DNA from: Eubacterium sp.
GTDB lineage: Bacteria; Bacillota; Clostridia; Lachnospirales; Lachnospiraceae
Direction of reading: 5' to 3'
NCBI GenBank assembly: GCA_017541035.1
Contig: JAFXZW010000023.1
Coordinates: 116-64,115 of the forward strand
Length of the DNA stretch: 64,000 nucleotides
Part shown: one piece after another, positions 1,303 through 20,265 of the stretch
How the letters are laid out: the number at the start of each line of letters is the position of its first letter
Numbering within the stretch: position 1 is the stretch's first letter
The notes under the pieces: model-generated
What the model was told of the DNA's origin: nothing
The model's database searches: none
What the model saw: the letters and a program-made list of their open reading frames with translations, nothing else
Position numbers and translations under genes: made by a program

Positions 1303-3057
1303 ATGCAGACTAAGGATGAATATTTTGAGACAAATACCGGAGGAAGGATCCCTACCGGTCTTCCGGGAGGGTTCTTCATCTATGAAGCGAATGGGGATGA
1401 AAGGATCCTTTTCGCCGAAACAAATATCGTCCGGATGTATGGTTGTGATGATTTTGAGGATTTTCTGAATTATATCGGGAACTCCTTTAAAGGAATGGTT
1501 CACCCGGAAGATCTGCATCGGGTTGAGAATCAGATCGTGGCACAGACGGAGGCCGGTGAGAAGCGGCACGACTATGTACGGTACCGGATCCTGACCAAGC
1601 AGGGAGAGGTGAAGTATGTTGAGGACTTTGGTCATCTGCTGCATTGGGTAAACGGGACCAGCTTCTTCTATGTGTTCATCGTGGATGTGGATCAGAATGA
1701 GTATTTTAACCGTAACCGCAACTCCTATGCCGAAGCAGAGCTTCTTTCCGGAAATATGGATACGGATGAGCTGACCGGACTCTTCACCATGTCATTTTTC
1801 TATCATCGGGTTCAGTTACTTCTGGCATCACCGGACAGCTGGCGCCAGGACATTTCCTTCCTGCATTTTGATATCCCGAATTTCAAGCTGTATAACGAAC
1901 GTCATGGCTTCAAAAAGGGAGACGAGCTGCTCTGCGAGCTGGCGAAAACGATCCGGGAGGTCTTCAGCGATGGCATTCTTGCGCGCTTTTCCGATGATCA
2001 TTTTGTGGTTTGCGCCTGCTGCAGAAAGGAGAAGATCCCTGGCCGGGTGGAGGAAGTGCATCGGAGAATGCTGCGGTCGGAGGATGCCGGCAAGAAGGTA
2101 CGGATCAAGACGGGTATCTACTACATGGAGGACCGGCGGCCGGAGATAGGTCTTGCCTGCGATCACGCCCGGCTGGCCTGCAACAGCATCAAAGGCCGTC
2201 ATGATGTGAATTACTGTGTTTATGATGAAATGCTCCGCTACAATATGCGCAAGCAGCAGTATGTAGTGGACCATATTGACGAGGCCATTGAGAAGGAATA
2301 CATAAAGGTTTATTATCAGCCGGTGATCCGGATCAGAACCAGAGAGATCTGTGGGTACGAGGCGCTTGTTCGTTGGCAGGACCCGCAAATGGGGATGCTG
2401 TCTCCTGCGGATTTTGTGGAGACATTGGAACAGTTCCATTTGATCCATCTGGTGGACAAATTTGTGGTGCAGCAGGTCTGCAGGGATTACCGGAAAATGA
2501 AGCAGGAGGGTAAACCGGTGGTTCCGGTTTCGGTAAACCTTTCCAGGCTGGATTTTGAACTCTGCGACATTTTCGGGATCATCGAAGAGACCCGGCAACA
2601 GTATGATGTTCCGCGTCAGATGATAGATCTGGAGATTACGGAAAGCGCTCTTAACGACAACATAGGCTATATTAAATCCGAATGCGATAAAATGCGGGAT
2701 CTGGGTTATCATATCTGGCTGGACGACTTCGGCAGCGGGTATTCCTCTCTGAATACCATCGCGGAATACGCCTTTGATGTGATTAAGCTGGATTTGATCT
2801 TCCTCCGCTGCCTGGACAAAAATCCGCGTACCGGAAAGCTGATGAAATACATTATCAGCGGTGCCAGAGGCATGGGGCTGTCTCCGCTCTGTGAAGGCGT
2901 GGAGACAGAGGAACATCTCCAGTTTCTTGCTGAGATCGGCTGTGAACGTGCACAGGGTTATCTTTTCGGAAAGCCCATGCCACTGGAGGAAACCCGCGCC
3001 CATACGATGGCAAAAGGTATGATCTGGGAGAAGATAGAAGAAGGGGGTACAGTATGA
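1303..3057 (+). CDS. PAS / degenerate GGDEF / EAL protein (likely c-di-GMP phosphodiesterase)
   Basis: PAS-like VHPEDL motif; RFSDDHF replaces GGDEF; intact EAL and DDFGSG; AAGGAG RBS before ATG 1303. Confidence 0.9.
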   Translation: MQTKDEYFETNTGGRIPTGLPGGFFIYEANGDERILFAETNIVRMYGCDDFEDFLNYIGNSFKGMVHPEDLHRVENQIVAQTEAGEKRHDYVRYRILTKQGEVKYVEDFGHLLHWVNGTSFFYVFIVDVDQNEYFNRNRNSYAEAELLSGNMDTDELTGLFTMSFFYHRVQLLLASPDSWRQDISFLHFDIPNFKLYNERHGFKKGDELLCELAKTIREVFSDGILARFSDDHFVVCACCRKEKIPGRVEEVHRRMLRSEDAGKKVRIKTGIYYMEDRRPEIGLACDHARLACNSIKGRHDVNYCVYDEMLRYNMRKQQYVVDHIDEAIEKEYIKVYYQPVIRIRTREICGYEALVRWQDPQMGMLSPADFVETLEQFHLIHLVDKFVVQQVCRDYRKMKQEGKPVVPVSVNLSRLDFELCDIFGIIEETRQQYDVPRQMIDLEITESALNDNIGYIKSECDKMRDLGYHIWLDDFGSGYSSLNTIAEYAFDVIKLDLIFLRCLDKNPRTGKLMKYIISGARGMGLSPLCEGVETEEHLQFLAEIGCERAQGYLFGKPMPLEETRAHTMAKGMIWEKIEEGGTV

Positions 3058-4892
3058 GAAAGCTAGCCAAAAGGGGAAATATCAATGAACGCATGGATAT
3101 AGCCCTGATGAAATTCAAATCACGAATGACATCATATCCGCCGGGAATGTGTCCGCTGGTTATGTATCGTTCCATCCTGCAGATGTCCATGAATCAATCC
3201 TGCGGGAAATGTGTTCCCTGCCGGGACGGTCTGGTAGAGGCGGAGCGGATGCTGCGGGATATCCTGAATGGAGACGCAGAGGAGGAAACGCTGACAAAGC
3301 TGAAGAATCTCTGCGTCATGATCGCGGAGACGGCAGACTGTGCCGTAGGTGTTGTTGCTGCAAATTCCGTTCTGGACAGTCTTACGGAATTTGCGGATGA
3401 ATATGAGAGCCACATCCGGAATCGCCGGTGTGCAGGCAGTGTGACTCAGACGGTTCCCTGCATGACGCTTTGTCCGGCCCATGTGGATGTCCCCGGTTAC
3501 GTGGCCATGGTAAAGGATGGGGATTATGCCGGAGCGATCAATATCATCCGCGACAGAAATCCCTTCCCCACCGCATGTGCCATGGTTTGTGAGCATCCCT
3601 GCGAGAGGAAATGCCGCCGGACCATTGTCGATCAGCCCATTAATATCCGCGGCCTGAAAAAATATGCCGTGGACCAGATTGCGGCGGATCAGGTGAAGAC
3701 ACCGCCTGCCAATGTGGCAACCGGCAAAACCATCGGCGTTGTCGGAGGAGGACCCTCCGGACTGACGGCGGCTTATTTCCTTGCCCTTATGGGACATAAG
3801 GTTGTGGTTTATGACGAGCATGAGAAGCTGGGCGGTATGCTGCGTTACGGCATTCCCGAATACCGGCTGCCCAAGGCGCGTCTGGATGAGGATATCAATG
3901 CCATTCTCGGGGCGGGCGATATCGAGGTGCACCTGAATACAAAGGTGGGGCGGGACATTTCCGTCGAAGAGCTGCGGGAGAAATACGATGCCGTTTATCT
4001 CGGGCTGGGTGCCCAGCTGGGAAACCGCATGCCCGTGGATAATGTAAACTGTAAAAATGTCATTCCGGCAGCGGATTTCCTTCAGGCAGTGGCCAAAGGA
4101 GAAAAGATTGATCTGACGGGGAAGAAGGTCGTTCTGATCGGCGGCGGAAATGTTGCGATGGATGCGGCTCGGACCGCCGTCCGCCTGAAAGCAAAGACCG
4201 TGCATGTATTTACGCGAAAGAGGGATGACTATACCGCACTGGAAAGCGAGATCGAAAGCGCCATGCAGGAAGGCGTCCGTTTCCGTACGCTGCTTTCATT
4301 CCTGCATCTGGAGACGGATAAAAATGATCCGGATCTGGTGGATGCCGTATGGCTGCAGCCGGAGATGGTCGGTGAATTTGATGAGTTTGGACTGGTAAAG
4401 ACAGAGCATTCCAGCCACTATCCCTACCGGTTTACCTGTGATTATCTGATCCTCGGTGTTGGCCAGCGCTGCGATGTGGCCGCCTTTGAAGAGGCGGGTA
4501 TCCCGGTGAACCGCGGACGGATCCTGGCAGATGAAACCTGCAGCATCGAAGGAGCAGATGGCGTTTTCTCAGGCGGAGACTGCGTGACAGGACCTTCTAC
4601 AGCCATCAACGCCATTGCGGCAGGACAGGTTGCCGCACACAATATCGATGAGTACCTGGGTTACCATCATAAGATCAGCTGTGAGGCAGAGGCCCCACAG
4701 GCGAAGCCAAATAAATGTATTCCCACGGGACGTGCGGAGATCGAGGAAAGAGATCCTTTTGAGAGACGGGAGGATTTCCTGCATGTGGAAATACCCATGA
4801 CACCGGAGGAAGCGGAACGTGAGGCCGGCAGATGCCTTCGCTGTGACCATTTCGGCTGCGGATCGATGGAAGGGGGCAGATGCGTATGGTAG
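3054..4892 (+). CDS. FAD/NAD(P)H oxidoreductase subunit of FDH: NuoF-type 4Fe-4S N-terminus plus GltD-like domains
   Basis: CGKCVPC...C motif; CPAHVDVPGY and CAMVCEHPCERKC Fe-S motifs; GGGPSG and GGGNVAMDAAR; adjacent to fdhF. Confidence 0.85.
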   Translation: MRKLAKRGNINERMDIALMKFKSRMTSYPPGMCPLVMYRSILQMSMNQSCGKCVPCRDGLVEAERMLRDILNGDAEEETLTKLKNLCVMIAETADCAVGVVAANSVLDSLTEFADEYESHIRNRRCAGSVTQTVPCMTLCPAHVDVPGYVAMVKDGDYAGAINIIRDRNPFPTACAMVCEHPCERKCRRTIVDQPINIRGLKKYAVDQIAADQVKTPPANVATGKTIGVVGGGPSGLTAAYFLALMGHKVVVYDEHEKLGGMLRYGIPEYRLPKARLDEDINAILGAGDIEVHLNTKVGRDISVEELREKYDAVYLGLGAQLGNRMPVDNVNCKNVIPAADFLQAVAKGEKIDLTGKKVVLIGGGNVAMDAARTAVRLKAKTVHVFTRKRDDYTALESEIESAMQEGVRFRTLLSFLHLETDKNDPDLVDAVWLQPEMVGEFDEFGLVKTEHSSHYPYRFTCDYLILGVGQRCDVAAFEEAGIPVNRGRILADETCSIEGADGVFSGGDCVTGPSTAINAIAAGQVAAHNIDEYLGYHHKISCEAEAPQAKPNKCIPTGRAEIEERDPFERREDFLHVEIPMTPEEAEREAGRCLRCDHFGCGSMEGGRCVW

Positions 4893-7726
4893 AGAACAGG
4901 AATGAGCATATGATGGAAAAGGGTAATTTGACCGGACTGATCGAGTTGGAGACACGGATCAGTCATGCGGAAATGGAAGCCGGGAAGACGGCTGATAAGG
5001 CTGTTTCGGAGATGGAGTCCAATATCATCCGGGTTACCATTAACGGTAAGGAATACACGGCCGAGAGAGGAAAGAAGATACTTAATTTCTGTCGGGAGGC
5101 AGGTATTGAGATTCCTTCACTGTGTCATTTGAAGGATTACAGCGATATCGGTTCCTGCCGTCTTTGCATGGTGGAGATCGAAGGCTATGGAAGCAGGCTT
5201 TTTGCGGCATGCCGGACAAAGCTGGAGGATGGTATGGTAATTACCACCGAGTCCGAGAAGCTGACGGAGTATCGGAAGGAAATGCTCCGGCTTCTTCTGT
5301 CCAACCATACGGTGGATTGTATGAACTGCCCGAAGAATGGCGGCTGTCAGCTTCAGGAGATGTGCAACCGGTATGAGATCAAGGATACGCCCTATGCCGG
5401 ATCCCGTCGGAAGATAGAAGGAAAGCTTCCGAAGCTGGCGGATAATCCGTACATTTCCTATGATCCCAGTAAGTGCATCCATTGTCAGCGCTGTGTCAGT
5501 GCCTGCAATAGAGCTGCCGTAAATCATACAATGAAAAACGGAAGAACAGGTGTATTTCACATGGTGGATGCACCCTTCGGACCGGACTGGAGAGAGAGCG
5601 GCTGCGAGAGCTGCGGAAACTGTGCCGCAGCATGCCCCACAGGTGCATTGGTGCTCAAGAGAAAAGAAAAATATCATGAGTGGTCAACCAAAAAGGTTCT
5701 TACAACCTGTCCGCATTGCGCGACCGGATGTCAGTTCTACCTGCTGGTAAAGGATAATCAGATCGTGGATGTGGAGCCGGCGGATGGACCTTCGAACCAC
5801 GGACTGCTCTGTGTCAAGGGCCGGAGCGGTAGTTTTGATTTTGTTAATTCTCCCGACCGGATCCGGACTCCGCTCATCAAGAATAAAGAGACCGGTGAAT
5901 TCGAACCGGCTTCCTGGGATGAAGCGATCTCTTATGTGGCAAAGCGTTTTATGGAGCTGAAGGAGAAGTACGGCGGGGATGCTCTGGCCGGCTTTGCCTG
6001 CTCCCGTTCTGCCAATGAAGACATTTACATGGTACAGAAGATGGTTCGTACCTGCTTTGGCACAAATAATACGGACAACTGTGCCCGCGTCTGCCATTCC
6101 GCAACTGTTGCGGGTCTGGCAAAGACCCTGGGCTCCGGTGCCATGACGAACCCGATCTACGACATCACCCATGATGTGGACTGCATCATGCTGGTGGGTT
6201 CGAACCCTGAGGAAGCGCATCCTGTGGTAGGTATGCAGATCCGGCAGGCGGTTGAGCGCGGAACGCGTCTGATCGTGGTTGATCCCCGGACCATCGGGCT
6301 GGCGGAGAAGGCGGACATTCACCTGAAGCTTCGGCCGGGTACAAATGTTGCCTTTGCCAACGGCATGATGCATGTGATGATCAAGGAAGACCTGATCGAT
6401 CATGATTATATCGAAAAGTTCACAGAAGATTTCGACAAGCTGAAGGAGCTGGTGAAGGATTATACGCCGGAGAAGGTGGGTGAGATCTGCCATATCGATC
6501 CGGATAAGCTGGTAGAGGCGGCAAGAATGTACGCCACAGCGAAAAAGGCCCCCATCATTTACTGTCTGGGTGTGACCGAGCATTCTACCGGTACCGAGGG
6601 TGTTATGAGCATGTCCAATATGGCTCTGCTTTGTGGTAAGGTTGGTCGCAGCGGCTGTGGTGTGAATCCTCTGCGCGGGCAGAATAATGTGCAGGGAGCC
6701 TGTGATATGGGTGCCCAGCCCACGGATTATCCGGGCTATCAGAAGGTGGACAATCCGGAGGTAAGGGAGAAATTCGAGCTGGCCTGGGGCGTTCGTCTGA
6801 ATCCCAAGCCGGGTCTCAAGGCAACGGATGTTTTCCCGGCAGCGATCGAAGGGAAGATCAAGGGTCTCTATATCTGCGGCGAGGATCCGGTTGTAACGGA
6901 TCCGGACAGCGAGCATATCAAGCATGCCCTGCAGAGTCTGGATTTCTTCGTACTTCAGGAGCTCTTTATGACGGAAACCGCCAAATATGCGGATGTGATC
7001 CTTCCGGGACGCAGCTTTGCCGAGAAGGAAGGCACATTTACAAATACCGAACGCCGGGTACAGAGGATCCGGACTGCCGTAACCGTGGAGGGTGACATGC
7101 GTCTCGATACGGATATCATCATCGATCTCATGAATGCCATGGGTTATCCGCAGGAATACCTGACCGCTTCACAGATCATGGATGAGATAGCATCCGTTAC
7201 CCCCAGTTTTGCGGGGATCAACTTTACGCGTCTGGATGCAGGCGAATCTCTTCAGTGGCCCTGCCGTGACAGAAATACGATCGGCACCCCCATTATGCAT
7301 GTGGGCAAGCCGGTGCGCGGCCGTGCGCTTCTATATCCTGCGGAATACAAGCCGTCACAGGAGCTCCCGGATGAATCCTATCCGTATGTACTGACCACGG
7401 GGCGTATCCTGTACCAGTATAATGCGGCTGCCATGACCTCCCGTGCACCGGGACTTATGGAGATTGCCGGAGAAGGCTTTATCGAGGTGAATTACAAGGA
7501 TGCAGACCGCCTTGGAATTAAGAACGGTGAGAGAATCCGTGTCAGCAGCCGGCGCGGCTGCATTACCGCAACCGCAAGGGTAGGCAGGAAGGTGTCTGAG
7601 GGTGAGACCTGGATGCCCTTCCATTTCCCGGATTCCCCCGTGAATATGCTTACGAATGCGGCATTGGATGATTTCGCCCGGATTCCGGAATACAAGGTTT
7701 GCGCGGTCAATATTGAAAAAATGTAG
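4880..7726 (+). CDS. fdhF: Formate dehydrogenase alpha subunit (Cys form, cytoplasmic); true start may lie downstream
   Basis: N-terminal 2Fe-2S, His-ligated 4Fe-4S and 2x4Fe-4S motifs; CPHCATGC; CARVCH active site; LRGQNNVQGACD; no Tat signal. Confidence 0.93.
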   Translation: MRMVENRNEHMMEKGNLTGLIELETRISHAEMEAGKTADKAVSEMESNIIRVTINGKEYTAERGKKILNFCREAGIEIPSLCHLKDYSDIGSCRLCMVEIEGYGSRLFAACRTKLEDGMVITTESEKLTEYRKEMLRLLLSNHTVDCMNCPKNGGCQLQEMCNRYEIKDTPYAGSRRKIEGKLPKLADNPYISYDPSKCIHCQRCVSACNRAAVNHTMKNGRTGVFHMVDAPFGPDWRESGCESCGNCAAACPTGALVLKRKEKYHEWSTKKVLTTCPHCATGCQFYLLVKDNQIVDVEPADGPSNHGLLCVKGRSGSFDFVNSPDRIRTPLIKNKETGEFEPASWDEAISYVAKRFMELKEKYGGDALAGFACSRSANEDIYMVQKMVRTCFGTNNTDNCARVCHSATVAGLAKTLGSGAMTNPIYDITHDVDCIMLVGSNPEEAHPVVGMQIRQAVERGTRLIVVDPRTIGLAEKADIHLKLRPGTNVAFANGMMHVMIKEDLIDHDYIEKFTEDFDKLKELVKDYTPEKVGEICHIDPDKLVEAARMYATAKKAPIIYCLGVTEHSTGTEGVMSMSNMALLCGKVGRSGCGVNPLRGQNNVQGACDMGAQPTDYPGYQKVDNPEVREKFELAWGVRLNPKPGLKATDVFPAAIEGKIKGLYICGEDPVVTDPDSEHIKHALQSLDFFVLQELFMTETAKYADVILPGRSFAEKEGTFTNTERRVQRIRTAVTVEGDMRLDTDIIIDLMNAMGYPQEYLTASQIMDEIASVTPSFAGINFTRLDAGESLQWPCRDRNTIGTPIMHVGKPVRGRALLYPAEYKPSQELPDESYPYVLTTGRILYQYNAAAMTSRAPGLMEIAGEGFIEVNYKDADRLGIKNGERIRVSSRRGCITATARVGRKVSEGETWMPFHFPDSPVNMLTNAALDDFARIPEYKVCAVNIEKM

Positions 7727-7811: not shown

Positions 7812-7883
7812 CCCCTATTCGAAATATAGGGGTTTAGCCGGTTTTTGGATAATGTGAAAAGAATTGTTGAAGGGAAGAACACT

Positions 7884-9146
7884 ATGGAGCTGGAAGAAGC
7901 TTTGGAAAAATACCTGTCGGAAGCTGAACCCATACAGGATGTGGAAAGAGTACCGCTCTTTGAAGCCTTTGGAAGGATCATAGCCGAAGAGATCAGAGCA
8001 CCCTTTGCTGTGCCGCATTTTCCGAAGGCTGCCATGGACGGATATGCCGTGCGGGCGGAGGATGTGCAAAATGCCTCACCGGAAAAGCCGGTAATCCTTA
8101 CGGTTGTTGGAGAAATCCTGGCAGGTCAGGAGGAGCCGGTGCTTTATCGTTTCTCCGGTTCAGATATGTCGGAAAGATCTGCGGGATGCAGAGGAACCGC
8201 CATTCGCATCATGACAGGAGCTTTGGTACCCGAGGGTTATGATGCCGTTGTGCGTCAGGAGGATACGGATTACGGGGAGAGGGAGGTACAGATCTGCAAA
8301 GGAGTCCTTTCCTACACCAATTACTGCAAAGCAGGAGAGGATATCGCGGAAGGCGCTGCGGTTCTCCCAAAAGGAAGAAGGATCGGGCGGATCGAAGCAG
8401 GCATGCTTGCCAGCCTGGGTTTTTTTGAGGTACCGGTTCTCCGGAGACTGCGGATATCCGTGATCTCTACGGGAACGGAACTGTGGGAGGTTTCCGAAAC
8501 GGCTTCCCTAAGCTCCGGCGGAGTTCAGCCGCCCCGGGGAAGGATCTACAACAGCATAGCCTTCACTCTTTCGGGGAGTCTGAAAGCAGCAGGTTTTACG
8601 GTGGACTGCAGTGTGGTACCGGATGAGGCGGATGAGATCGCCCGATGCCTGGAGCAGGCGCTGATTACCTCCGATATTGTGATCACCACGGGAGGAGTTT
8701 CTGTCGGAAAGAAGGATCTGCTTCCCGAAGTACTGGACAGGATCGGTGCAAAGAAGGTTTTTGCCCGGATCAACATCCAACCGGGAACCCCCACCATCGG
8801 AAGTGTGAAGGGTGGGAAAGCCATTTTAAGCCTATCCGGAAACCCCTTTGCGGCGTTGGTGAATTTTGATCTGTATTTTTATCCCTTAGCCGCTAAGCTG
8901 ACCGGATGTTCTTCACTGCTGCCTGTAATCGAAGAGGCTATACTGCAAAGCGAATATCCGAAGGTTAATCATCATCGGCGCTTTCTTCGGGCAAGGGTTG
9001 AAAATGGATTGGTCTATCTCCCGGCAAAAAGCCATGCATCTTCCGTACTTGCCAATCTGCTGGAATGTAACTGTTATATCGATCTTCCTTCAGAGAAGAA
9101 GGTAAAGCCCGGAGACAGGGTTCGGATCGTCCGTATGCCGGTCTGA
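7884..9146 (+). CDS. moeA: Molybdopterin molybdotransferase MoeA
   Basis: PHFPKAAMDGYAV, IMTGA.VP, STGTEL, TTGGVSVGKKD, LSGNP motifs. Confidence 0.92.
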   Translation: MELEEALEKYLSEAEPIQDVERVPLFEAFGRIIAEEIRAPFAVPHFPKAAMDGYAVRAEDVQNASPEKPVILTVVGEILAGQEEPVLYRFSGSDMSERSAGCRGTAIRIMTGALVPEGYDAVVRQEDTDYGEREVQICKGVLSYTNYCKAGEDIAEGAAVLPKGRRIGRIEAGMLASLGFFEVPVLRRLRISVISTGTELWEVSETASLSSGGVQPPRGRIYNSIAFTLSGSLKAAGFTVDCSVVPDEADEIARCLEQALITSDIVITTGGVSVGKKDLLPEVLDRIGAKKVFARINIQPGTPTIGSVKGGKAILSLSGNPFAALVNFDLYFYPLAAKLTGCSSLLPVIEEAILQSEYPKVNHHRRFLRARVENGLVYLPAKSHASSVLANLLECNCYIDLPSEKKVKPGDRVRIVRMPV

Positions 9147-9351: not shown

Positions 9352-9441
9352 GTCTTACATAGTTCGGAGGATATGGTTCTGTATAACGGACTGAAACGTG
9401 ACGGGAAACAGTGCCGAAGAGAGGGATTTCGGAGAGGAATC

Positions 9442-10587
9442 ATGAAACATACAAAGCACCCTGCATATTCCGTGGGCATACTGGCCGGCGGAAAGAGCAC
9501 CCGCATGGGGCAGAATAAAGCTCTGATGGAATTTCAGAATGAAACCATGATCGGCAGGATCTCAAGGGAGTTTCGAGGCTTCGGAGAGGTTCTTGTTTCT
9601 GCGTCTCAAAGGGGAATTTATGAAGCTGAGGGGCTGCGGGTGGTTTATGACGAAGCGGACAGCATCGGGCCGATCGAAGGAATCCGCCAGCTGATCAGCA
9701 ATGCCGGAGAGGAATACATTTTTATCTGTGCCGCCGATATGCCTTTTGTTAATCGTGAGATCGCGGAGTATCTGGCGGAATTTTTATCGTCGGATTTTGA
9801 TTGCTTTGTGATTACGGATGAAGAGCATGTTCATCCGTTATGCGCCATTTATTCCAAACGGGTGCTCCCCGTGGTCGAGGAGTTGATCCGGGAGAAGAAA
9901 TACCGGCTGGTGGAGATACTGAACCGTGTGCGGACCAAATATGTCAGTCTGACGCATACGAATTTCGACCGCCGGATTGTAAAGAATGTCAATACAAAGG
10001 ACGAGTTTCTGGCACTGAGTCTGCCGGTTATTTTTGCTGTGTCCGGTTATCATAACAGCGGAAAGACAGGTCTCATCGAAAAGCTGATCAATGAGTTTAT
10101 CCGGGAGGGATATACGGTCGGTGTGCTGAAGCATGACGGACAGGATCATATCGATGAGGCAGAAGGAACGGATACGGCGCGGCTGCGGAAGGCCGGAGCG
10201 ATGTGCACAGCTGTGGTTTCCGACACAAGGTGCATTTTTGATGTGCAGTTTGTGAAGGTCGGTGGAGAAGCAGCCGGTTCCGGAGAAGCCGGGGAGGAGT
10301 TACGGCAAAAAATGTCGGATGTGCGGAGTCCGGAGACTCTGATCCGGCAGATGAAAGATCTACCGGAACCCCCTTCTGTTATTATCCTGGAGGGCTTTAA
10401 GAATTCGGTTTATCCGAAGATCGAGGTCGTCCGACGGGAAGTTTTTCCCGAAAGTGTCGCGGATCCTGACACCCTGATCTGTATCGTTACCGACTGTATA
10501 TCCCCTGAGAAAGTATCCTGTCCCGTATTCGGGTCGGATGATATCCGGGGGATTTTTTCATGCCTGCGGGAGAGGTTTTCAATCTGA
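9442..10587 (+). CDS. mobA: MobA-MobB fusion (Moco guanylyltransferase plus MobB P-loop domain)
   Basis: LAGGKSTRMGQNK and ICAADMPF (MobA); SGYHNSGKTGLIEKL, LKHDG, ILEGFK (MobB). Confidence 0.88.
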   Translation: MKHTKHPAYSVGILAGGKSTRMGQNKALMEFQNETMIGRISREFRGFGEVLVSASQRGIYEAEGLRVVYDEADSIGPIEGIRQLISNAGEEYIFICAADMPFVNREIAEYLAEFLSSDFDCFVITDEEHVHPLCAIYSKRVLPVVEELIREKKYRLVEILNRVRTKYVSLTHTNFDRRIVKNVNTKDEFLALSLPVIFAVSGYHNSGKTGLIEKLINEFIREGYTVGVLKHDGQDHIDEAEGTDTARLRKAGAMCTAVVSDTRCIFDVQFVKVGGEAAGSGEAGEELRQKMSDVRSPETLIRQMKDLPEPPSVIILEGFKNSVYPKIEVVRREVFPESVADPDTLICIVTDCISPEKVSCPVFGSDDIRGIFSCLRERFSI

Positions 10588-10591
10588 ACGG

Positions 10592-10667
10592 TATGATGCT
10601 GGGGTCAAAGGGTATTTTGCCTTGATGATTCGCAGCACGCACACTACGTGTGCAATGTGCTGCGAGA
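10592..10667 (-). repeat. Dispersed repeat family B, copy 2
   Basis: Reverse complement matches 62472-62540 apart from a short internal indel and a few substitutions; internal hairpin GCACACTACGTGTGC. Confidence 0.85.
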
Positions 10668-10750
10668 TCCCTATCATCATAATATTCATAAAAGAAAACA
10701 GGTTCAGGATTATGTGTAAAAATGGAAATGAATCGAAAGGTTTACATAAT

Positions 10751-11836
10751 ATGAAACTGATCAATACAGAAGAAGCAATCGGACATGTACTGTGCCATGA
10801 CATTACCAGAATCATTCCGGGTGAGGAGAAGGGGCCGGTCTTTCGGAAGGGACATATTGTAACCCGGGAGGATATCCCGGTGCTGCTGTCTGTGGGAAAG
10901 GAGCATCTCTACGTGTGGGAGAAGACGGAAGGAATGCTGCATGAAGATGAAGCAGCTGAAATCCTGCGGGAGATCTGCATGGGGGAAGATACATCCATGA
11001 CTGCATCCGCGCCTTCGGAGGGTAAGATCGAGATCCGCGCAGCACGGGACGGACTTCTTAAGATCGACAGGGAGAAGCTGCTCCGGGTCAACAGCCTTGG
11101 GGAAATGATGATCGCCAGTATTCACGGAGACCAGCCTGTGGGTGCAGGTGCAAAGCTGGCCGGGACCCGCGTGATCCCACTGGTGATCGAAAAGGAGAAA
11201 ATGGAACGGGCAAAGGAAGCGGCCGGAGGGTCGCCGATCTTCTCGATCCTTCCTTTTTCGCACATCCGCTACGGTCTGGTTACTACGGGAAATGAGGTGG
11301 CAGCCGGCCGGATCCGGGATGCCTTTGGTCCGGTGTTGAAGAAGAAAATGGCGGAATACGATACGGAATGTCTGGGGCAGGTGATCCTGCCGGATGATAA
11401 GGAAGCCATTACGAAAGCAATCCTGAAGTTTGTCCGGGAAGGCGCTGATCTGGTGCTTTGCAGCGGTGGTATGAGCGTGGATCCGGATGATAAGACCCCG
11501 GGAGCGATCCGGGATACGGGTGCCGAGGTAGTTAGCTACGGAGCGCCTGTACTTCCGGGAGCCATGTTTCTGCTGGCTTACCTGAAGACGGAAGCGGCTT
11601 TGGGAGATAATCTTCCAGCGGAAGCGGTTTTGGGATCAGAGCGTGTTCACACGGTTCCCGTGCTGGGGATTCCTGGCTGCGTCATGTATGCAAAACGCAC
11701 GGTATTTGATCTGGTGCTGCCCCGTATTCTTGCCGGAGAGCATCTAACCGCAGCGGATCTGGCACGTTATGGGGAAGGCGGTCTGTGTCTGAACTGTGAG
11801 GTATGCCATTTCCCAAACTGCAGTTTCGGGAAGTGA
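10751..11836 (+). CDS. MoeA-like molybdopterin-binding protein with C-terminal Cx2Cx2Cx4C motif
   Basis: AIGHVLCHDIT N-terminus; TTGNEV..G...D, CSGGMSVDPDD, PGAMF; ends CLNCEVCHFPNC. Confidence 0.82.
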   Translation: MKLINTEEAIGHVLCHDITRIIPGEEKGPVFRKGHIVTREDIPVLLSVGKEHLYVWEKTEGMLHEDEAAEILREICMGEDTSMTASAPSEGKIEIRAARDGLLKIDREKLLRVNSLGEMMIASIHGDQPVGAGAKLAGTRVIPLVIEKEKMERAKEAAGGSPIFSILPFSHIRYGLVTTGNEVAAGRIRDAFGPVLKKKMAEYDTECLGQVILPDDKEAITKAILKFVREGADLVLCSGGMSVDPDDKTPGAIRDTGAEVVSYGAPVLPGAMFLLAYLKTEAALGDNLPAEAVLGSERVHTVPVLGIPGCVMYAKRTVFDLVLPRILAGEHLTAADLARYGEGGLCLNCEVCHFPNCSFGK

Positions 11837-11962
11837 TCCCATAACAGGCCGTGAAGGGTAATTTAACCAAAAGCACTGGAAGATGATCTGTCAGGCCGGG
11901 GAGCAATTTACCGAAAGCACCGGACCGAAAGATAGAGAGTGCTGTGACCGAAAGCAAAGGGA

Positions 11963-11991
11963 TGTCAGGGAGCGTAGCGACCGAAGGATCT
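11963..11991 (+). repeat. Degenerate GTCAT-type REP-like element (family A)
   Basis: TGTCAGGGAGCGTAGCGACCGAAGGATCT resembles the left half of 50827-50903. Confidence 0.45.
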
Positions 11992-12027
11992 ACCGGATGC
12001 AAAAGGGTTACGAAGAAAGGAACAGTC

Positions 12028-12507
12028 ATGAACCAGCTTTCACATATCAATGACAAGGGTGAAGCCACCATGGTGGACGTAACGGCAAAGGATGAAACCC
12101 TCAGGTACGCAAGAGCAACCGGCCGGATCCACGTTGGAGCAGCGGTCCTGCAGGCCGTTGAGGAAGGCTCTGTTGCAAAGGGAGATGTATTCGGAACAGC
12201 CAGAATCGCCGGAATCATGGCAGCAAAGAAAACGCCGGATCTGATTCCGCTCTGCCATGGGCTGTTGTTAACAAAGATAGCAGTGGATTTTACTGTATGC
12301 CCTGAAACCTCCGATATTCTCTGCACCGGAGAAGTGCGTCTTACCGGAAAGACCGGTGCGGAAATGGAGGCCCTCACGGCTGTCAGTGTGGCGCTGCTTA
12401 CGATTTACGATATGTGCAAGGCCATTGATAAGGAGATGGTTATTTCCGATATCCGTCTGGAGGAGAAGGACGGCGGAAAAACTGGACATTTTCAGAGAAC
12501 CAGGTAA
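12028..12507 (+). CDS. moaC: Cyclic pyranopterin monophosphate synthase
   Basis: LSH...[40 protein letters not shown]. Confidence 0.95.
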
Positions 12508-12516
12508 AAAAGGAAA

Positions 12517-13347
12517 ATGAATAAGATGAAAAAAATATTAAGCACGCTGCTCTGTCTGGGAATACTCTTTTGCCTTGTTGCCTGCGGAGACAGGAAGGAG
12601 GAGGGTACGACAGCGGCATCCACAACGGAAGAAGGAAACGTAAATGAAGAGCAGGCAACGCTCCTTGTCATGGCTGCGGCTTCCCTTACAGATGTCTGCA
12701 CGGAATTAACGCTGAAGTATAACATCACGCATCCGAATGTTCAGCTGATGTTTCATTTTGCCGGTTCCGGCGCACTGCAGACACAGATCGAAGCCGGTGC
12801 GGATGCGGACATTTTCATTTCGGCCGCACAGAAGCAGATGAATGCTCTGAAGGACCAGAAACTCATGAAAGAGGATACGATCGTTGACCTTCTTGAGAAT
12901 AAGGTTGTTCTGATCGTGCCGAAGAACAGTACGCTGGGTCTTACGGGTTTTGCGGATGTGAAGAAGGAAAATGTGAAGCTCGTGGGCATCGGCGAGGTGG
13001 AAAGCGTTCCCGCCGGGCAATATGCAAAGGAGATTTTCACAAATCTCGGCTGTTGGGATGAGATTGAGAAAAAGGCTAATTTCGGTACGGACGTGCGGAC
13101 CGTGCTGGGATGGGTGGAGACATCAAATGTGGATTGCGGCGTCGTTTATGCAACCGATGCCAAATCCAGTGAAAATGTGAAGGTTGTAGCGGAGGCCCCG
13201 GAAGGATCCTGTAAACCGGTGATTTATCCTGCGGGGGTGATCGCATCCTCCAAAAATCAGAAAGCTGCAGAGGAATTTCTTCATTTTCTGAAGAGCGACG
13301 AAGCAAAGCAGATTTTTGAGAAGCACGGTTTTTCCCTTGCAAAATAA
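12517..13347 (+). CDS. modA: Molybdate ABC transporter substrate-binding lipoprotein
   Basis: Lipobox LVAC; AAASL; GSGALQTQIEAGADADIFISA; VYATDA. Confidence 0.93.
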   Translation: MNKMKKILSTLLCLGILFCLVACGDRKEEGTTAASTTEEGNVNEEQATLLVMAAASLTDVCTELTLKYNITHPNVQLMFHFAGSGALQTQIEAGADADIFISAAQKQMNALKDQKLMKEDTIVDLLENKVVLIVPKNSTLGLTGFADVKKENVKLVGIGEVESVPAGQYAKEIFTNLGCWDEIEKKANFGTDVRTVLGWVETSNVDCGVVYATDAKSSENVKVVAEAPEGSCKPVIYPAGVIASSKNQKAAEEFLHFLKSDEAKQIFEKHGFSLAK

Positions 13348-13426
13348 AGTGAGAATGTAAAGGCTTGATAGGATAATGATTTTATCTGACGGATGATCGC
13401 ATCGCCTGACGGAAGAGGAAAGTGAT

Positions 13427-14110
13427 ATGGACCTTTCACCTTTATGGATATCCTTAAAAATAGCCCTGATCGCAACGGGGATCACATTTCTTTTAGGCCT
13501 TCCCGCGGCCTGGGGTGTAACGCATCTTGGAAGAGGGAAGCACATCGTGGACGGGATCCTTTCCATTCCGTTGGTGCTTCCTCCCACGGTGGTGGGTTTT
13601 CTATTGCTGATTCTGTTCGGACAGAGCTCCGCCTTCGGGCGTTTTCTGCAATCCATCGGCATCAACGTGATCTTCACCTGGCAGGGTGCGGTGATCGCCG
13701 CAGTGGTGGTATCCTTCCCTGTCATGTACCGGGGAATGAGAGGCGCTATCGAACAGGTGGATGAGAATCTGATTCACGCTGCGCGGACACTGGGGATGCG
13801 GGAGTTTACGATCCTGCGCCGCGTAATCCTTCCCTCCGCCTGGCCGGGGGTGGCAGCGGCGGCGGTGCTGTCCTTTGCCCGTGCCCTGGGCGAATTCGGC
13901 GCCACCATTATGATCGCCGGAAATCTTCCGGGGAAGACGCAGACCATGTCGGTTGCCGTGTACACAGCCATGCAGGGAGGCAACCGCGGGCTGGCACTGA
14001 AGTGGGTGCTTATCATCGTCACCTTTTCGCTGATCATACTGATTCTGATGAATTACTGTACCGCCGCAGGCTTCCGGAGGAGAAGAAATGCAACTTACGG
14101 TAGACATTGA
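13427..14110 (+). CDS. modB: Molybdate ABC transporter permease
   Basis: LPPTVVGF, EAA-like loop, FARALGEFGAT. Confidence 0.93.
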   Translation: MDLSPLWISLKIALIATGITFLLGLPAAWGVTHLGRGKHIVDGILSIPLVLPPTVVGFLLLILFGQSSAFGRFLQSIGINVIFTWQGAVIAAVVVSFPVMYRGMRGAIEQVDENLIHAARTLGMREFTILRRVILPSAWPGVAAAAVLSFARALGEFGATIMIAGNLPGKTQTMSVAVYTAMQGGNRGLALKWVLIIVTFSLIILILMNYCTAAGFRRRRNATYGRH

Positions 14111-15233
14111 AAAAAAAGTCGGAGCCTTCTGTCTGCATACAGCATTTGATGTGGATATGGAGCGACTGGCTTTGCTGGGAGCTTCCGGCTGCGGAAAAAG
14201 TATGACGTTAAAATGCATCGCCGGAATCGAGAAACCGGATCGGGGCAGGATCATCCTCGGAGACCGGGTGCTTTTTGATGCGGAAAAAAAGATCTGTCTT
14301 CCGGCCAGGGAAAGAAGGGTAGGTTACCTTTTCCAGGACTACGCTCTTTTTCCGAACATGACGGTACGTAAAAATGTGACCTGTGCCGCCAAGGATCCTG
14401 CTTATGCAGAGGAACTGCTGGAGCGTTTCGGTATCCGGGAGGTGGCGGAGCAGTATCCTGCGGAGCTTTCCGGAGGGCAGAGTCAGAGAACGGCTTTGGC
14501 ACGCATGCTGGCGGCTAAGCCTGAGGTATTGCTAATGGATGAACCCTTTTCGGCACTGGATAATTATATGCGAACCCGTATGGAGCATGAGATCCTGGAT
14601 ATCATGAAGGATTTTACAGGTCCGGTGATCCTGGTTACCCATGACCGGAACGAAGCGTACCGGCTGGCAGAACGGATCGGAGTGATGGAGGCCGGCAGGC
14701 TGGCGGAGCTGCAGGAGAGAAAGGAATTCTTTGATCATCCCAGAACAGTAGCGGCTGCCCGGCTCACGGGCTGTAAGAACATTTCCCGTCTGGTCGGGAG
14801 AGGGGACGGAAGCTTTTTTGCCGAGGACTGGGGAATATCGGTGGCGGAACCCGGGGGATGCAGCCTGAAGGGCGTTCCTTATGTGGGCTTTCGGGCGCAC
14901 TATTTCCGGTGGGCAGACGAGAGGATGCGGAAGGATTCCGGAAATTCAGCAGGCCAGACACCGGAACGCACATCCGGAGCAGAAAACGAAGAGAAGTATG
15001 TATCGGGAAATGCAGCAGGCCAGGTGATCTCCTGCCGGCTGCAGCGAGTAATCGAGGATACCTTCTCCGTGGTGGTCTGCTTTACCGCTGAGGGAAATAC
15101 CTCTGAATCACCGGATGCCCTGCTTACCTGGGTGGTGGATAAGACACACTGGGAAAATGTGAGGGAACAGGTGTTGACGGGACATTTCTACCTGCAGCCC
15201 GATCCCGGAAAGTTGATGCTGTTGGAGGGCTGA
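14088..15233 (+). CDS. modC: Molybdate ABC transporter ATPase
   Basis: GASGCGKS Walker A, LSGGQ signature, LLMDEPFSALD. Confidence 0.9.
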   Translation: MQLTVDIEKKVGAFCLHTAFDVDMERLALLGASGCGKSMTLKCIAGIEKPDRGRIILGDRVLFDAEKKICLPARERRVGYLFQDYALFPNMTVRKNVTCAAKDPAYAEELLERFGIREVAEQYPAELSGGQSQRTALARMLAAKPEVLLMDEPFSALDNYMRTRMEHEILDIMKDFTGPVILVTHDRNEAYRLAERIGVMEAGRLAELQERKEFFDHPRTVAAARLTGCKNISRLVGRGDGSFFAEDWGISVAEPGGCSLKGVPYVGFRAHYFRWADERMRKDSGNSAGQTPERTSGAENEEKYVSGNAAGQVISCRLQRVIEDTFSVVVCFTAEGNTSESPDALLTWVVDKTHWENVREQVLTGHFYLQPDPGKLMLLEG

Positions 15234-15308
15234 GACAGGTCCGGGGAAGTGGTTGAAATGATAAATCCTCAGAATATAACCATGTGTCATTGTGAACAGG
15301 AGACGAAA

Positions 15309-16313
15309 ATGACTGAACTTGTGGATGCTTACGGAAGAAAGGTGGATTATCTCAGAATCTCTCTGACGGACCGTTGCAATCTCCGTTGCAGGTACTGCAT
15401 GCCGAAGGAGGGAATCGGCGGGATCGGACATGAGAGGATCCTCACATTGGAGGAAATCCTCCGGGTGGCGCGTATCCTTACGGAGATGGGAGTCCGGCGT
15501 ATCCGGATCACAGGAGGCGAACCGCTGGTGCGCAGGAATGTACTGTATCTCATCCGCCAGCTGGGTACGCTCCCGGGGCAGCCGGAGCTGACTCTGACCA
15601 CTAATGGAGTGTTGCTGGAGGAGGTACTTCCGGAGATCCTTGCAGCGGGACTGCACAGCATTAATATCAGTCTCGATACCCTGGACCGGGAGGTTTACCG
15701 GGAGCTTACCGGGACGGATGCGCTGGAACGCGTGCTCCGCGGAATGGAGAAGGCGCTGGAAATGGGTATGCAGGTCAAGTTGAATACCGTTCCCATCCGC
15801 GGAATCAATGAGAAGGAACTGACAGTGCTGGCCGGTCTGGCACGGGACAGAGGAATCGCGGTCCGATTTATCGAGCTGATGCCCATAGGCTGCGCGAAGG
15901 ATTTAAGAGGCATCCCGGGAGAAGAGATCCTGCATATTCTGGAAGACGAATACGGCTCTGCCGAACCGGAGGGAGGAACTCCCGGAGTATCGGAACTGCA
16001 AAAGGAAGCCAGGGGGCCGGCACGGTATTATCATTTCAGAGGCTTTCAGGGAAATGTGGGATTCATTGATCCCCTTTCTCACAGCTTCTGCAGCAGCTGT
16101 AACCGTGTACGCCTTACATCGGATGGCCGTCTGAAGCTGTGCCTATATTATCCGGAGGGGCCGGATCTGCGGGAAATGCTTCGGGGAGGCTGCAGCGATG
16201 AGGAGCTGAAGCAGGCAATCACACGGGAACTGATCTACAAGCCGGAATGTCACAGCTTTATCAACCCGTCAGAGGGAAAAGATTCAAGAAATATGAACGA
16301 GATCGGAGGATAG
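15309..16313 (+). CDS. moaA: GTP 3',8-cyclase (radical SAM)
   Basis: CNLRCRYC; C-terminal CSSCNRVRLT...LC; ends IGG. Confidence 0.95.
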   Translation: MTELVDAYGRKVDYLRISLTDRCNLRCRYCMPKEGIGGIGHERILTLEEILRVARILTEMGVRRIRITGGEPLVRRNVLYLIRQLGTLPGQPELTLTTNGVLLEEVLPEILAAGLHSINISLDTLDREVYRELTGTDALERVLRGMEKALEMGMQVKLNTVPIRGINEKELTVLAGLARDRGIAVRFIELMPIGCAKDLRGIPGEEILHILEDEYGSAEPEGGTPGVSELQKEARGPARYYHFRGFQGNVGFIDPLSHSFCSSCNRVRLTSDGRLKLCLYYPEGPDLREMLRGGCSDEELKQAITRELIYKPECHSFINPSEGKDSRNMNEIGG

Positions 16314-16316: not shown

Positions 16317-17249
16317 ATGGGTCGGGTACGCGCGGTCTGCATCAGTGAGAAAAAGGGAACCCCGAAGAGGGATATCGGAAGAAGCCTTTTGATTAAGGAT
16401 TTCGGGCTTGAAAAGGATGCCCATGCGGGAAGTCCGCGGCAGGTCAGTATGCTTGCGGCGGAGGAGGTGGAGGCATTCCGTGAGCGTTCAAAGGGAGAAC
16501 TGCCCCCCGGTATCTTCGGTGAAAATCTGCTTGTGGAGGGGTTTGATCTCGCCAAATGTCCCGTGGGCACGCAGTTTCGGATCGGAGATGTACTTCTTCG
16601 CCTGACACAGATCGGAAAGCAGTGCCACAGCGGCTGTGTGATCATGCAGAAAACGGGGGAATGCATCATGCCCCGGCAGGGTGTATTTGCCGAGGTACTG
16701 CAGGGGGGCGTTGTGACCTCAGGTGACAGGATCCTGCGCCTTCCGCCGGAGCAGCGGGAGCAGGGATCGCCCTTCCGCGCGGTTATTCTTACCGCCAGTG
16801 ACCGTTCCTTCCGGGGAGAGAGAAAGGATCAAAGCGGTCCGAAGATCGCAGAGCTTCTTTCTGCCGCGAAATACGAGATAGTGGGTACGGAGCTTCTCCC
16901 CGATGATGAAGAAGGCCTCATCAATGTGATGACGGAGATCTGTGATATCGAACGGCCGGATGTTCTCTTTACCACAGGAGGAACTGGTTTTTCACCCCGT
17001 GACCGGATGCCGGAAGCTACCCGGAGGATTGCGGAACGGGATGTCCCTGGCATTGCTGAAGGAATCCGGGCCTACAGTCTTACCATTACCCCCCGGGCCA
17101 TGCTGTCCCGCGCCGTCAGTGTAATCCGTGGTGGTACGCTCATTGTCAATCTCCCGGGGAGTCCGAAGGCAGTTGAAGAATGCCTTACCTATCTGATGCC
17201 TGTTCTTGAACATGGTCTCGGCATTCTCCGGGGAGAAGCGGACGAATAG
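16317..17249 (+). CDS. MOSC domain fused to MogA/MoaB molybdopterin adenylyltransferase
   Basis: FGENL and IGKQCHSGC (MOSC); TTGGTGFSPRD and NLPGSPKAV (MogA). Confidence 0.87.
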   Translation: MGRVRAVCISEKKGTPKRDIGRSLLIKDFGLEKDAHAGSPRQVSMLAAEEVEAFRERSKGELPPGIFGENLLVEGFDLAKCPVGTQFRIGDVLLRLTQIGKQCHSGCVIMQKTGECIMPRQGVFAEVLQGGVVTSGDRILRLPPEQREQGSPFRAVILTASDRSFRGERKDQSGPKIAELLSAAKYEIVGTELLPDDEEGLINVMTEICDIERPDVLFTTGGTGFSPRDRMPEATRRIAERDVPGIAEGIRAYSLTITPRAMLSRAVSVIRGGTLIVNLPGSPKAVEECLTYLMPVLEHGLGILRGEADE

Positions 17250-17315: not shown

Positions 17316-17374
17316 GTAATAGACTATAAGGGCAACAGAAAAACTCATTTTGTATAATTGTTTTGGGGAAGTAC

Positions 17375-19157: not shown

Positions 19158-19285
19158 TTGGAAGACTTTGACATTTTTGCCCTTACCCATAGAGGCAAAT
19201 TATCAGAAAATCCGGCACGTTTATCATTTATATGCCATGAAACTACAGGCTTTGTGCGGGATCATCATCAGAAAGCAGGGAGTAT

Positions 19286-20125: not shown

Positions 20126-20265
20126 AGAACCGTCGGACATGTCTCGTATGACAGCTGACAAAACAGTACTTATGCAGGACGATACCATGCATCAAAGGGC
20201 GCGAGGCGCCGGGAGATGCGGTAGGGAGTTAATGAAATAATTCAGATATAGAGGAGTAACAAGAA

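What the first reader, a model, noticed from the sequence alone, without database searches (positions are those of the whole stretch)
16317..17249. MOSC-MogA fusion carrying a Cx3Cx8C motif
Seen: a MOSC domain (KQCHSGCVIMQKTGEC) is fused to MogA directly after moaA. Established: MOSC domains were proposed as sulfur carriers, and MogA binds the MPT product. Inference: the fusion would place a sulfur-handling domain next to the MPT-binding step, as expected if it replaces MoaD/MoaE.
Basis: partly seen in the sequence, partly recalled or inferred. Interest (0 to 1): 0.6.

Follow-up and report, generated by a model that had tools for sequence, protein, structure and literature searches.

The report
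MOSC-MogA fusion in MoaE-less Moco operon
A real, widespread fused gene joins a three-cysteine MOSC domain to the molybdopterin adenylyltransferase MogA, in a genome where the usual sulfur-inserting enzyme MoaE was not found. Across two bacterial phyla this MOSC type is found almost exactly where MoaE is missing, which makes it the best candidate for a long-noted missing step, though this is untested.

Summary
ORF 16317-17249 (+) encodes an N-terminal MOSC domain and a C-terminal MogA/MoaB domain, 3 nt after moaA. The motif is C103-x3-C107-x8-C116, and each Cys is kept in 149-150 of 150 diverse relatives.

The fusion is common: 30 of 80 related loci are fused, and 20 more have adjacent MOSC and MogA genes.

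- MoaE was not found in this 95%-complete genome, nor in 50 of 50 genomes with the closest MOSC relatives.
- In a second phylum, 50 of 52 MoaC-positive genomes without MoaE carry this MOSC, against 13 of 46 with MoaE. None of the 14 genomes with a strong, canonical MoaE has a strong MOSC match.
- FdhD is present elsewhere in the genome, so a role replacing FdhD is not needed.

Displacement is supported for MoaE only, not for MoaD. ThiS/ThiF carriers exist in this genome and sit inside some MOSC operons.

Sulfur chemistry and metal or cluster binding are inferred, not shown.

The gap and the MOSC idea are already in the literature (2008-2016, untested). This scan has also flagged it on other DNA.

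The parts
16317..16742 (+). MOSC domain (residues 1-142) of the fusion, of the 3-Cys 'short MOSC' subtype
   Evidence: PF03473, E 5e-16. It matches the MOSC half of NF011069 at 141 bits. The AF2 model has pLDDT 90.5. Nearest folds are YuaD 1oru (Z 17.1), YiiM 5yhh (Z 15.2) and mARC1 6fw2 (Z 13.0).
16623..16664 (+). Cys triad C103-x3-C107-x8-C116, with H104
   Evidence: Seen in the translation. Kept in 149, 149 and 150 of 150 relatives; H104 in 143 of 150. C103 aligns with the invariant MOSC cysteine of YiiM (PMC5818509). The loop has lower pLDDT, 72-86.
16743..16772 (+). Inter-domain linker (about residues 143-152)
   Evidence: pLDDT dips to 77 in residues 141-150, and no Pfam domain covers it.
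16773..17249 (+). MogA/MoaB-type MPT adenylyltransferase domain (residues 153-310) plus stop codon
   Evidence: PF00994, E 8e-29. TIGR00177 is above its cut-off. T. thermophilus MoaB 2is8 matches at E 4.5e-40 and 47% identity; gephyrin-G and Cnx1G also match. Foldseek TM 0.92 normalised to the target.
15249..16313 (+). moaA (GTP 3',8-cyclase), 3 nt upstream of the fusion
   Evidence: TIGR02666, 354.9 bits against a cut-off of 284.
11944..12507 (+). moaC (cPMP synthase)
   Evidence: PF01967, E 8e-56; TIGR00581, 203.9 bits.
12517..15233 (+). modA, modB and modC (molybdate ABC transporter)
   Evidence: TIGR01256, TIGR02141 and ABC_tran/ModC-like hits.
7845..9146 (+). moeA (molybdotransferase)
   Evidence: MoeA_N, MoCF_biosynth and MoeA_C domains.
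9373..10587 (+). mobA-mobB fusion
   Evidence: NTP_transf_3 plus MobB.
10751..11836 (+). MoeA-like protein holding only the MoCF_biosynth domain, with a C-terminal CLNCEVCHFPNC tail. The ORF may start at 10538.
   Evidence: Present in 48 of 80 MOSC loci. It shows no complement pattern with MoaE: 28 of 52 against 14 of 46.
3054..7726 (+). Client enzyme: NAD(P)-linked Fe-S flavoprotein plus formate dehydrogenase alpha subunit
   Evidence: TIGR01591, 837 bits, for 4880-7726. NF009410 for 3054-4892.

Best explanation
The gene encodes a two-domain Moco-biosynthesis protein.

The C-terminal domain is an ordinary MogA/MoaB MPT adenylyltransferase.

The N-terminal domain belongs to a distinct, uncharacterised three-cysteine branch of the MOSC superfamily. 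It most likely takes over the job of MoaE, the catalytic subunit of MPT synthase, in anaerobes that lack it. In this model it does three things:
1. It binds the pyranopterin phosphate made by MoaA/MoaC.
2. It installs the dithiolene sulfurs. This would use the invariant MOSC cysteine C103 together with C107/C116, either as persulfide relay sites or as ligands of a metal or Fe-S centre.
3. It hands MPT to the fused or adjacent MogA.

The sulfur donor is not fixed by the data. It could be a cysteine desulfurase or a ThiS/MoaD-like thiocarboxylate.

Shown: the domain identities, the fold, the conserved triad, the operon position, the failure to find MoaE, and the complementary distribution with MoaE.

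Inferred: the substrate, the sulfur chemistry, any cofactor on the triad, and channelling to MogA.
For: 1. Missing step. The operon holds moaA, moaC, mogA, moeA, mobAB, modABC and an FDH. PF02391 (MoaE) has no match in the 95%-complete genome. A profile of clostridial MoaE-like proteins also finds nothing.

2. Own-class sample of 121 genomes. MoaC is in 25. This MOSC is in 23, and all 23 are MoaC-positive. MoaE is in only 7. Among 14 control genomes, the same 11 have both MoaC and MoaE.

3. Closest relatives. None of 50 genomes with the closest MOSC relatives has MoaE.

4. Second phylum, 98 MoaC-positive genomes. MOSC is in 50 of 52 genomes without MoaE and in 13 of 46 with MoaE (odds ratio about 63). 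None of 14 genomes with strong MoaE (E<1e-30) has a strong MOSC hit. The canonical MoaE genes that were inspected sit next to a MoaD gene.

5. Gene order and fusions. The order MoaC-MoaA-MOSC-MogA recurs. Thirty of 80 loci are fused to MogA, and MoaC-MOSC fusions exist. The fused/split state changes at least several times on the domain tree.

6. Ligand site. R41, N70, Q98 and C103 align with the YiiM residues modelled to hold the Moco phosphate and pterin and to lie beside Mo (PMC5818509).

7. Sulfur donors nearby. NifS-like genes lie within 7 kb in 15 of 80 loci. A ThiS-like carrier plus ThiF sits in the MoaE-less Terrisporobacter operon.

8. FdhD is present elsewhere in the genome.

9. The other extra operon gene, the MoeA-like protein, shows no complement pattern with MoaE.
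Against: - No biochemical or genetic test exists.
- Every characterised MOSC protein (mARC, YiiM, YcbX, ABA3 C-terminal domain) binds finished Mo-MPT. None makes MPT.
- MOSC coexists with orphan MoaE-like genes in 11-13 of 46 genomes (second phylum) and 6 of 7 (own class).
- One such orphan, DVU2212 (120 aa), is genetically required for tungsten-cofactor-dependent AOR activity in D. vulgaris. No MOSC gene was among the hits in that screen (PMC10102598).
- Fusion partners also include late-acting XdhC (5) and FdhD (2).
- Related genomes are not independent, so the Fisher p-value overstates the case. The E<1e-30 split was chosen after seeing the data.
- The genome is a 139-contig draft.
- The geometry of the Cys triad could not be measured because no coordinates were available.
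Confidence: 0.55

Rival explanations
1. Late-acting Moco carrier or sulfurase. The MOSC domain binds finished Mo-MPT through C103, like the ABA3/MOCOS C-terminal domain. It stores, protects or sulfurates Moco before insertion into FDH- or XDH-type enzymes.
For: All characterised MOSC domains bind Mo-MPT (PMC10637980, PMC5818509). The ligand-contact residues are conserved. NifS-like genes lie in 15 of 80 loci, which recalls the NifS-MOSC fusion of ABA3. Fusions to XdhC (5) and FdhD (2) exist.
Against: This does not predict the complementary distribution with MoaE. FdhD is present in this genome. There are no MoeA fusions among 150 representatives, and the gene sits between moaA and mogA. The MOSC_N domain and a fused NifS are absent. 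The missing MPT-synthase step stays unexplained.
Confidence: 0.22
2. Co-traveller. An undetected enzyme (a very divergent MoaE or an unrelated protein) makes MPT in these genomes. MOSC is an accessory of that route, for example a cPMP/MPT chaperone or sulfur relay, and not the catalyst.
For: Orphan MoaE-like proteins score only weakly against Pfam, so still more divergent ones could be missed. ThiS/ThiF carriers persist in this genome and in some MOSC operons. The MoeA-like Cys-tailed protein is frequent in these operons.
Against: A profile of the orphan MoaE-like family finds nothing in this genome. No other conserved unknown gene is universal in the 80 operons. The MoeA-like protein lacks the complement pattern.
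Confidence: 0.15
3. Moco-dependent N-reductase of the YiiM/mARC type that happens to be encoded in the cofactor operon.
For: Same fold and same invariant cysteine.
Against: The YiiM 3-alpha domain, MOSC_N and any redox-partner domain are absent. NF008577 scores 17.8 bits against a cut-off of 294. It is constantly placed in biosynthesis operons and fused to biosynthetic enzymes. Its anti-correlation with MoaE is unexplained.
Confidence: 0.04

Closest known systems
MPT synthase MoaD2-MoaE2 with MoeB (E. coli)
   Same: It is the proposed functional analogue. It occupies the same pathway slot between MoaC and MogA, and its distribution is complementary to MoaE.
   Different: There is no sequence or fold relation to MoaE. 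It has a MOSC beta-barrel with a Cys triad. The sulfur donor is unknown. The function is not demonstrated.
B. subtilis YuaD (PDB 1ORU), a small stand-alone MOSC protein
   Same: It is the closest solved fold (Z 17.1, 144 residues aligned, rmsd 2.6). Both are single-domain MOSC proteins without MOSC_N or the 3-alpha domain.
   Different: Identity in the structural alignment is only 22%. YuaD is not detectable by sequence or profile search. YuaD's function is unknown, and B. subtilis has MoaE (control line).
YiiM / mARC / YcbX Moco-dependent N-reductases
   Same: MOSC fold, the invariant cysteine, and conserved residues at the modelled pterin and phosphate contacts.
   Different: It lacks their extra domains. 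It carries two further invariant cysteines and H104. It is encoded in, and fused into, the cofactor biosynthesis pathway.
Eukaryotic Moco sulfurase ABA3/MOCOS (NifS-like domain + MOSC_N + MOSC)
   Same: A MOSC domain paired with a cysteine desulfurase. Here the pairing is by gene neighbourhood, in 15 of 80 loci.
   Different: There is no fused NifS and no MOSC_N. The fusion partner is MogA, an early-to-mid pathway enzyme.
MOSC genes of MoaE-less Moco clusters already noted in Dehalobacter (Dehre_2363/2365) and Geobacter (mosC)
   Same: The same genomic situation. For Dehalobacter the same suggestion was made (PMC4751268). Geobacter is described in PMC2700814. MoaE is also missing in acetogens (PMC5039349).
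   Different: Those papers gave no distribution test, no motif analysis and no experiment. Homology of those particular genes to this one was not checked here.

Membership tests
MOSC superfamily (PF03473) | Profile match above the curated cut-off | tested here: met
   59.2 bits against 22.7, residues 33-139.
MOSC superfamily (PF03473) | MOSC beta-barrel fold | tested here: met
   The model has pLDDT 90.5. Matches are YuaD Z 17.1, YiiM Z 15.2 and mARC1 Z 13.0.
MOSC superfamily (PF03473) | Single invariant 'MOSC cysteine' | tested here: met
   C103 aligns with YiiM C120 (PMC5818509). It is kept in 149 of 150 relatives.
MOSC superfamily (PF03473) | Binds a molybdopterin-type ligand | not testable with these tools
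   Only the conservation of R41, N70 and Q98 at YiiM's modelled contact positions is available.
MogA/MoaB MPT adenylyltransferase (PF00994, TIGR00177) | Profile match above the curated cut-offs | tested here: met
   PF00994 scores 100.6 against 26.6. TIGR00177 scores 98.9 against 85.35.
MogA/MoaB MPT adenylyltransferase (PF00994, TIGR00177) | MogA fold and the conserved GGTG...RD and PGSxK motifs | tested here: met
   2is8 matches at 47% identity with TM 0.92. TTGGTGFSPRD and LPGSPK align with MoaB and gephyrin. The role of these motifs is from general knowledge.
MogA/MoaB MPT adenylyltransferase (PF00994, TIGR00177) | MPT adenylylation activity | not testable with these tools
   Needs an enzyme assay.
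MPT synthase large subunit MoaE (PF02391) | Homology to MoaE | tested here: not met
   There is no PF02391 hit in the protein or anywhere in the genome. The claim is 'works in its place', not membership.
Moco sulfurase ABA3/MOCOS | Fused NifS-like domain and MOSC_N domain | tested here: not met
   Pfam finds only MOSC and MoCF_biosynth.
YiiM 6-hydroxyaminopurine reductase (NF008577) | Equivalog score, with the C-terminal 3-alpha bundle | tested here: not met
   17.8 bits against a cut-off of 294. No 3-alpha domain hit.
MoaC/MOSC fusion protein (NF011069) | Full-length equivalog match (MoaC + MOSC) | tested here: not met
   141 bits against a cut-off of 457. Only the MOSC half (model positions 164-303) matches, so it is the same MOSC subtype in a different architecture.

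The most novel reading that the evidence does not exclude
The three-cysteine MOSC domain is itself a MoaE-independent molybdopterin synthase of anaerobes. The Cys triad, possibly with H104 or H36, holds an Fe-S or metal centre or a persulfide relay. This inserts both dithiolene sulfurs into cPMP, and MPT then passes directly to the fused MogA.
Probability: 0.3. Interest if true: 0.88.

Novelty: new variant of a known kind. Interest (0 to 1): 0.6.

Why it matters
Acetogens, many Clostridia, sulfate and metal reducers, and gut spirochaetes make active Mo/W enzymes such as formate dehydrogenase and AOR. Yet they lack the only known enzyme that puts the dithiolene sulfurs on the cofactor. Genome papers have noted this gap since 2008.

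A concrete candidate with a strong complementary distribution makes the question directly testable. It would also add a new chemistry to a cofactor pathway considered universal and solved.

There is a practical side too. Heterologous expression of clostridial or acetogen FDHs, and pathway reconstruction in gut anaerobes, depend on knowing the full gene set.

Tried and rejected
- FdhD substitute: rejected, because FdhD is present at G000:C127.
- MoeA-like Cys-tailed protein as the MoaE replacement: rejected, because it shows no complement pattern.
- Moco riboswitch upstream of the operon: none. Rfam at gathering threshold finds only three tRNAs in the window.
- Sequence or profile link to YuaD or any solved MOSC: only marginal YiiM hits (E 0.06-0.5).
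- The search for related loci with the 150-row alignment failed because no stretch was conserved enough. It worked with a 22-row alignment.
- The full-length model search returned only MogA-type folds, so the MOSC domain was modelled separately.
- The D. vulgaris fitness supplements were searched for a MOSC gene and for neighbours of moaC and moaA. Nothing was retrievable because the stored file is cut.
- Literature searches for an experimental test of MOSC as MPT synthase found none.
- Cys-Cys distances in the model could not be computed, because coordinates are not exposed.

Full report
**Observation**

The ORF at 16317-17249 (+) is a continuous 310-codon frame. Pfam places a MOSC domain at residues 33-139 and a MoCF_biosynth (MogA/MoaB) domain at 157-299, both far above their cut-offs. 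NCBIfam TIGR00177 also passes its cut-off. The N-terminal half matches the MOSC half of the MoaC/MOSC fusion model NF011069 at 141 bits.

moaA ends 3 nt upstream. The quoted peptide is present and gives C103-x3-C107-x8-C116.

The gene closes a plus-strand cluster. In order it holds:
- an NAD(P)-linked Fe-S flavoprotein and formate dehydrogenase alpha;
- moeA;
- mobA-mobB;
- a MoeA-like protein;
- moaC;
- modABC;
- moaA;
- MOSC-MogA.

A GGDEF-EAL gene follows.

**Is it more than chance, and is the fusion real?**

A word-indexed search returned at least 7,997 homologues. All of the best 120 carry both Pfam domains, and the few that bear names are from Lachnospiraceae and Treponema.

An exhaustive search with the MOSC domain alone found 2,656 cluster representatives at E<=1e-3. 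In the best 150 of these:
- C103, C107 and C116 are kept in 149, 149 and 150;
- H104 is kept in 143;
- D34, H36, R41, Q42, S44, E69, N70, Q98, G100 and K101 are nearly invariant.

The triad is therefore a signature of this subfamily and not a local accident.

**Structure**

The full-length AF2 model is confident (pLDDT 93.8). It shows two domains joined by a softer linker.
- The MogA half superposes on T. thermophilus MoaB, Cnx1G and gephyrin-G.
- The MOSC half, modelled alone (pLDDT 90.5), is closest to B. subtilis YuaD (Z 17.1), then YiiM (Z 15.2) and human mARC1 (Z 13.0).
- No solved structure is detectable by sequence. This is a structurally uncharacterised MOSC branch.

In the weak YiiM alignment, C103 falls on the invariant MOSC cysteine. 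R41, N70 and Q98 fall on YiiM R55, N87 and Q115, the residues modelled to hold the Moco phosphate and pterin (PMC5818509). The pocket therefore looks built for a pyranopterin phosphate. Which one it binds (cPMP, MPT or Moco) cannot be told from this.

**The missing step**

PF02391 (MoaE) finds nothing in the window's 2.98-Mb, 95%-complete, 139-contig assembly.

ThiS-like genes exist, but only inside two ThiS-ThiF-JAB clusters that are not linked to Moco genes. The only MOSC in the genome is this one. FdhD is present elsewhere, so the domain is not needed as an FdhD substitute.

**Distribution test 1: own class, 121 genomes, same sample each time**

MoaC is in 25 genomes. This MOSC is in 23, all of them MoaC-positive. 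It is usually adjacent to or fused with MoaC. MoaE is in only 7. In the 14 control genomes, by contrast, the same 11 have both MoaC and MoaE.

All 7 MoaE hits are weak (32-40 bits). The 3 whose neighbours were annotated lie among unrelated genes, with no MoaD and no Moco genes beside them. Six of the 7 were aligned and form one tight family. A profile of these six finds nothing in the window's genome.

**Distribution test 2: closest MOSC relatives**

Eighty loci with the closest MOSC relatives were fetched. In 50 of those genomes MoaE was found in none. These include cultured Blautia, Eubacterium ramulus, Terrisporobacter, Schaedlerella, Anaerocolumna, Lachnoanaerobaculum and Fervidicola. They also include Treponema and Desulfovibrionaceae MAGs.

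**Distribution test 3: an independent phylum**

This sample was 101 genomes from the phylum of a Desulfovibrionaceae MAG. MoaC is in 98 of them. The cross-tabulation among MoaC-positive genomes is:

| | MOSC present | MOSC absent |
|---|---|---|
| MoaE absent (52) | 50 | 2 |
| MoaE present (46) | 13 (2 of them weak hits) | 33 |

The odds ratio is about 63 and Fisher p is 3e-13. Related genomes are not independent, so the p-value overstates the case. Still, only 2 of 98 genomes have neither gene.

None of the 14 genomes with a strong MoaE (E<1e-30, a split chosen after seeing the data) has a strong MOSC hit. Two such MoaE genes were inspected, and each has a GG-ended ThiS/MoaD gene directly upstream. 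Six MoaE genes that coexist with MOSC were inspected, and all are solitary orphans.

The other 'extra' operon gene, the MoeA-like Cys-tailed protein, shows no such pattern: 28 of 52 against 14 of 46.

**Gene order and fusions**

In the 80 loci the core order is MoaC-MoaA-MOSC-MogA.
- MOSC is a separate gene followed by MogA in 20 loci, and fused to MogA in 30.
- MoaC-MOSC and MobB-MOSC-MoaC fusions also occur.
- Among the 150 representatives the fusion partners are MogA/MoaB (30), MoaC (8), XdhC (5), FdhD (2), ThiF (2), MobB (2) and MobA (1). MoeA is never a partner.
- On a low-resolution domain tree, the fused/split state changes 13 times by parsimony. The fusion has therefore arisen or broken repeatedly.
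- NifS-like genes lie within 7 kb in 15 of 80 loci.
- In Terrisporobacter muris the operon reads moaA-MOSC-mogA-ThiS-like (74 aa, ending GGG)-ThiF. That genome has no MoaE.

**Interpretation**

Together, four observations are the classic signature of non-orthologous displacement of MoaE by this MOSC subtype:
- one pathway step is missing;
- there is one near-universal extra gene;
- that gene sits between the producer of cPMP and the consumer of MPT;
- its distribution is complementary to MoaE.

I put about 0.55 on the reading that the MOSC domain takes part directly in MoaE-independent conversion of cPMP to MPT.

Ubiquitin-like carriers persist in this genome and in some MOSC operons, and they may be the sulfur donors.

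The role of the extra cysteines (persulfide relay, or Zn or Fe-S ligands) is inference only. The lower pLDDT of the 101-120 loop is compatible with a missing ligand but proves nothing.

**Counter-evidence**
- Every characterised MOSC protein binds finished Mo-MPT.
- MOSC coexists with orphan MoaE-like genes in a quarter of the MoaE-positive genomes.
- One such orphan, D. vulgaris DVU2212 (120 aa), is required together with moeB for tungsten-cofactor-dependent AOR activity. No MOSC gene was among the hits of that fitness screen (PMC10102598). Whether that strain has this MOSC could not be checked.
- Fusions to XdhC and FdhD, and the NifS neighbourhood, fit a late sulfurase or carrier role equally well.

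**Novelty**

The fusion itself is a common, already annotated protein ('MOSC domain-containing protein'). Earlier work bears on the gap as follows:
- The lack of MoaE has been reported for acetogens (PMC5039349, citing 2008 work).
- It has also been reported for Geobacter metallireducens (PMC2700814).
- It has been reported for Dehalobacter, where MOSC proteins were suggested in one sentence to fill the gap (PMC4751268).
- A 2023 review still lists small YuaD-type MOSC proteins as uncharacterised (PMC10637980).
- This scan has flagged the same gap on other DNA several times.

No experiment exists, and the decisive ones are listed under next steps.

Noticed in passing
window 10538-11836 (+), likely start at 10751: A MoeA-like protein with only the MoCF_biosynth domain, an N-terminal region unknown to Pfam and a C-terminal CLNCEVCHFPNC tail. 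It is present in 48 of 80 MOSC operons and 42 of 101 genomes of a second phylum. It shows no complement pattern with MoaE. Function unknown.
   Followed up: partly
L008:6002-6433(-), L009:6024-6431(+), L010:6129-6521(-), L106:3659-4009(+), L108:3497-3862(-): A tight family of orphan 'MoaE-like' proteins (116-146 aa, weak PF02391 hits). They are never next to MoaD and are found only in MoaC-positive genomes. In L108 the gene lies directly downstream of a NifS-like gene. The 120-aa D. vulgaris DVU2212, called moaE in PMC10102598 and required for tungsten cofactor, has the same size. The family is absent from the window's genome.
   Followed up: partly
L004 (G000:C138:1-3589): A triple fusion ThiS-ThiF-rhodanese (493 aa) lies next to a JAB peptidase, a Cys/Met PLP enzyme and a type 2A encapsulin shell protein (SrpI-like). 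This may be a sulfur-carrier and encapsulin sulfur-metabolism island.
   Followed up: no
L003/L095 (G000:C112:1-5769): A 628-aa protein with a cysteine-desulfurase domain is followed by a hexapeptide transferase, a 68-aa ThiS-like protein ending GGGR, ThiF, and a JAB-TusA fusion. This is a second ubiquitin-like sulfur-carrier system that could feed Moco synthesis.
   Followed up: no
L047:8044-8937 (Terrisporobacter muris): A ThiS/MoaD-like 74-aa gene ending GGG and a ThiF/MoeB-like gene lie directly after moaA-MOSC-mogA, in a genome where MoaE was not found. Carrier and E1 are kept while MoaE is missing.
   Followed up: partly
window 1279-3057 (+) and 17363-19054 (+): Two GGDEF-EAL (one with a PAS domain) c-di-GMP proteins flank the FDH/Moco cluster.
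   Followed up: no
window 19268-20188 (-) / 19286-20125 (+): Two long overlapping ORFs on opposite strands. The minus-strand 306-aa product has no Pfam hit. It is unclear which of the two is the gene.
   Followed up: no
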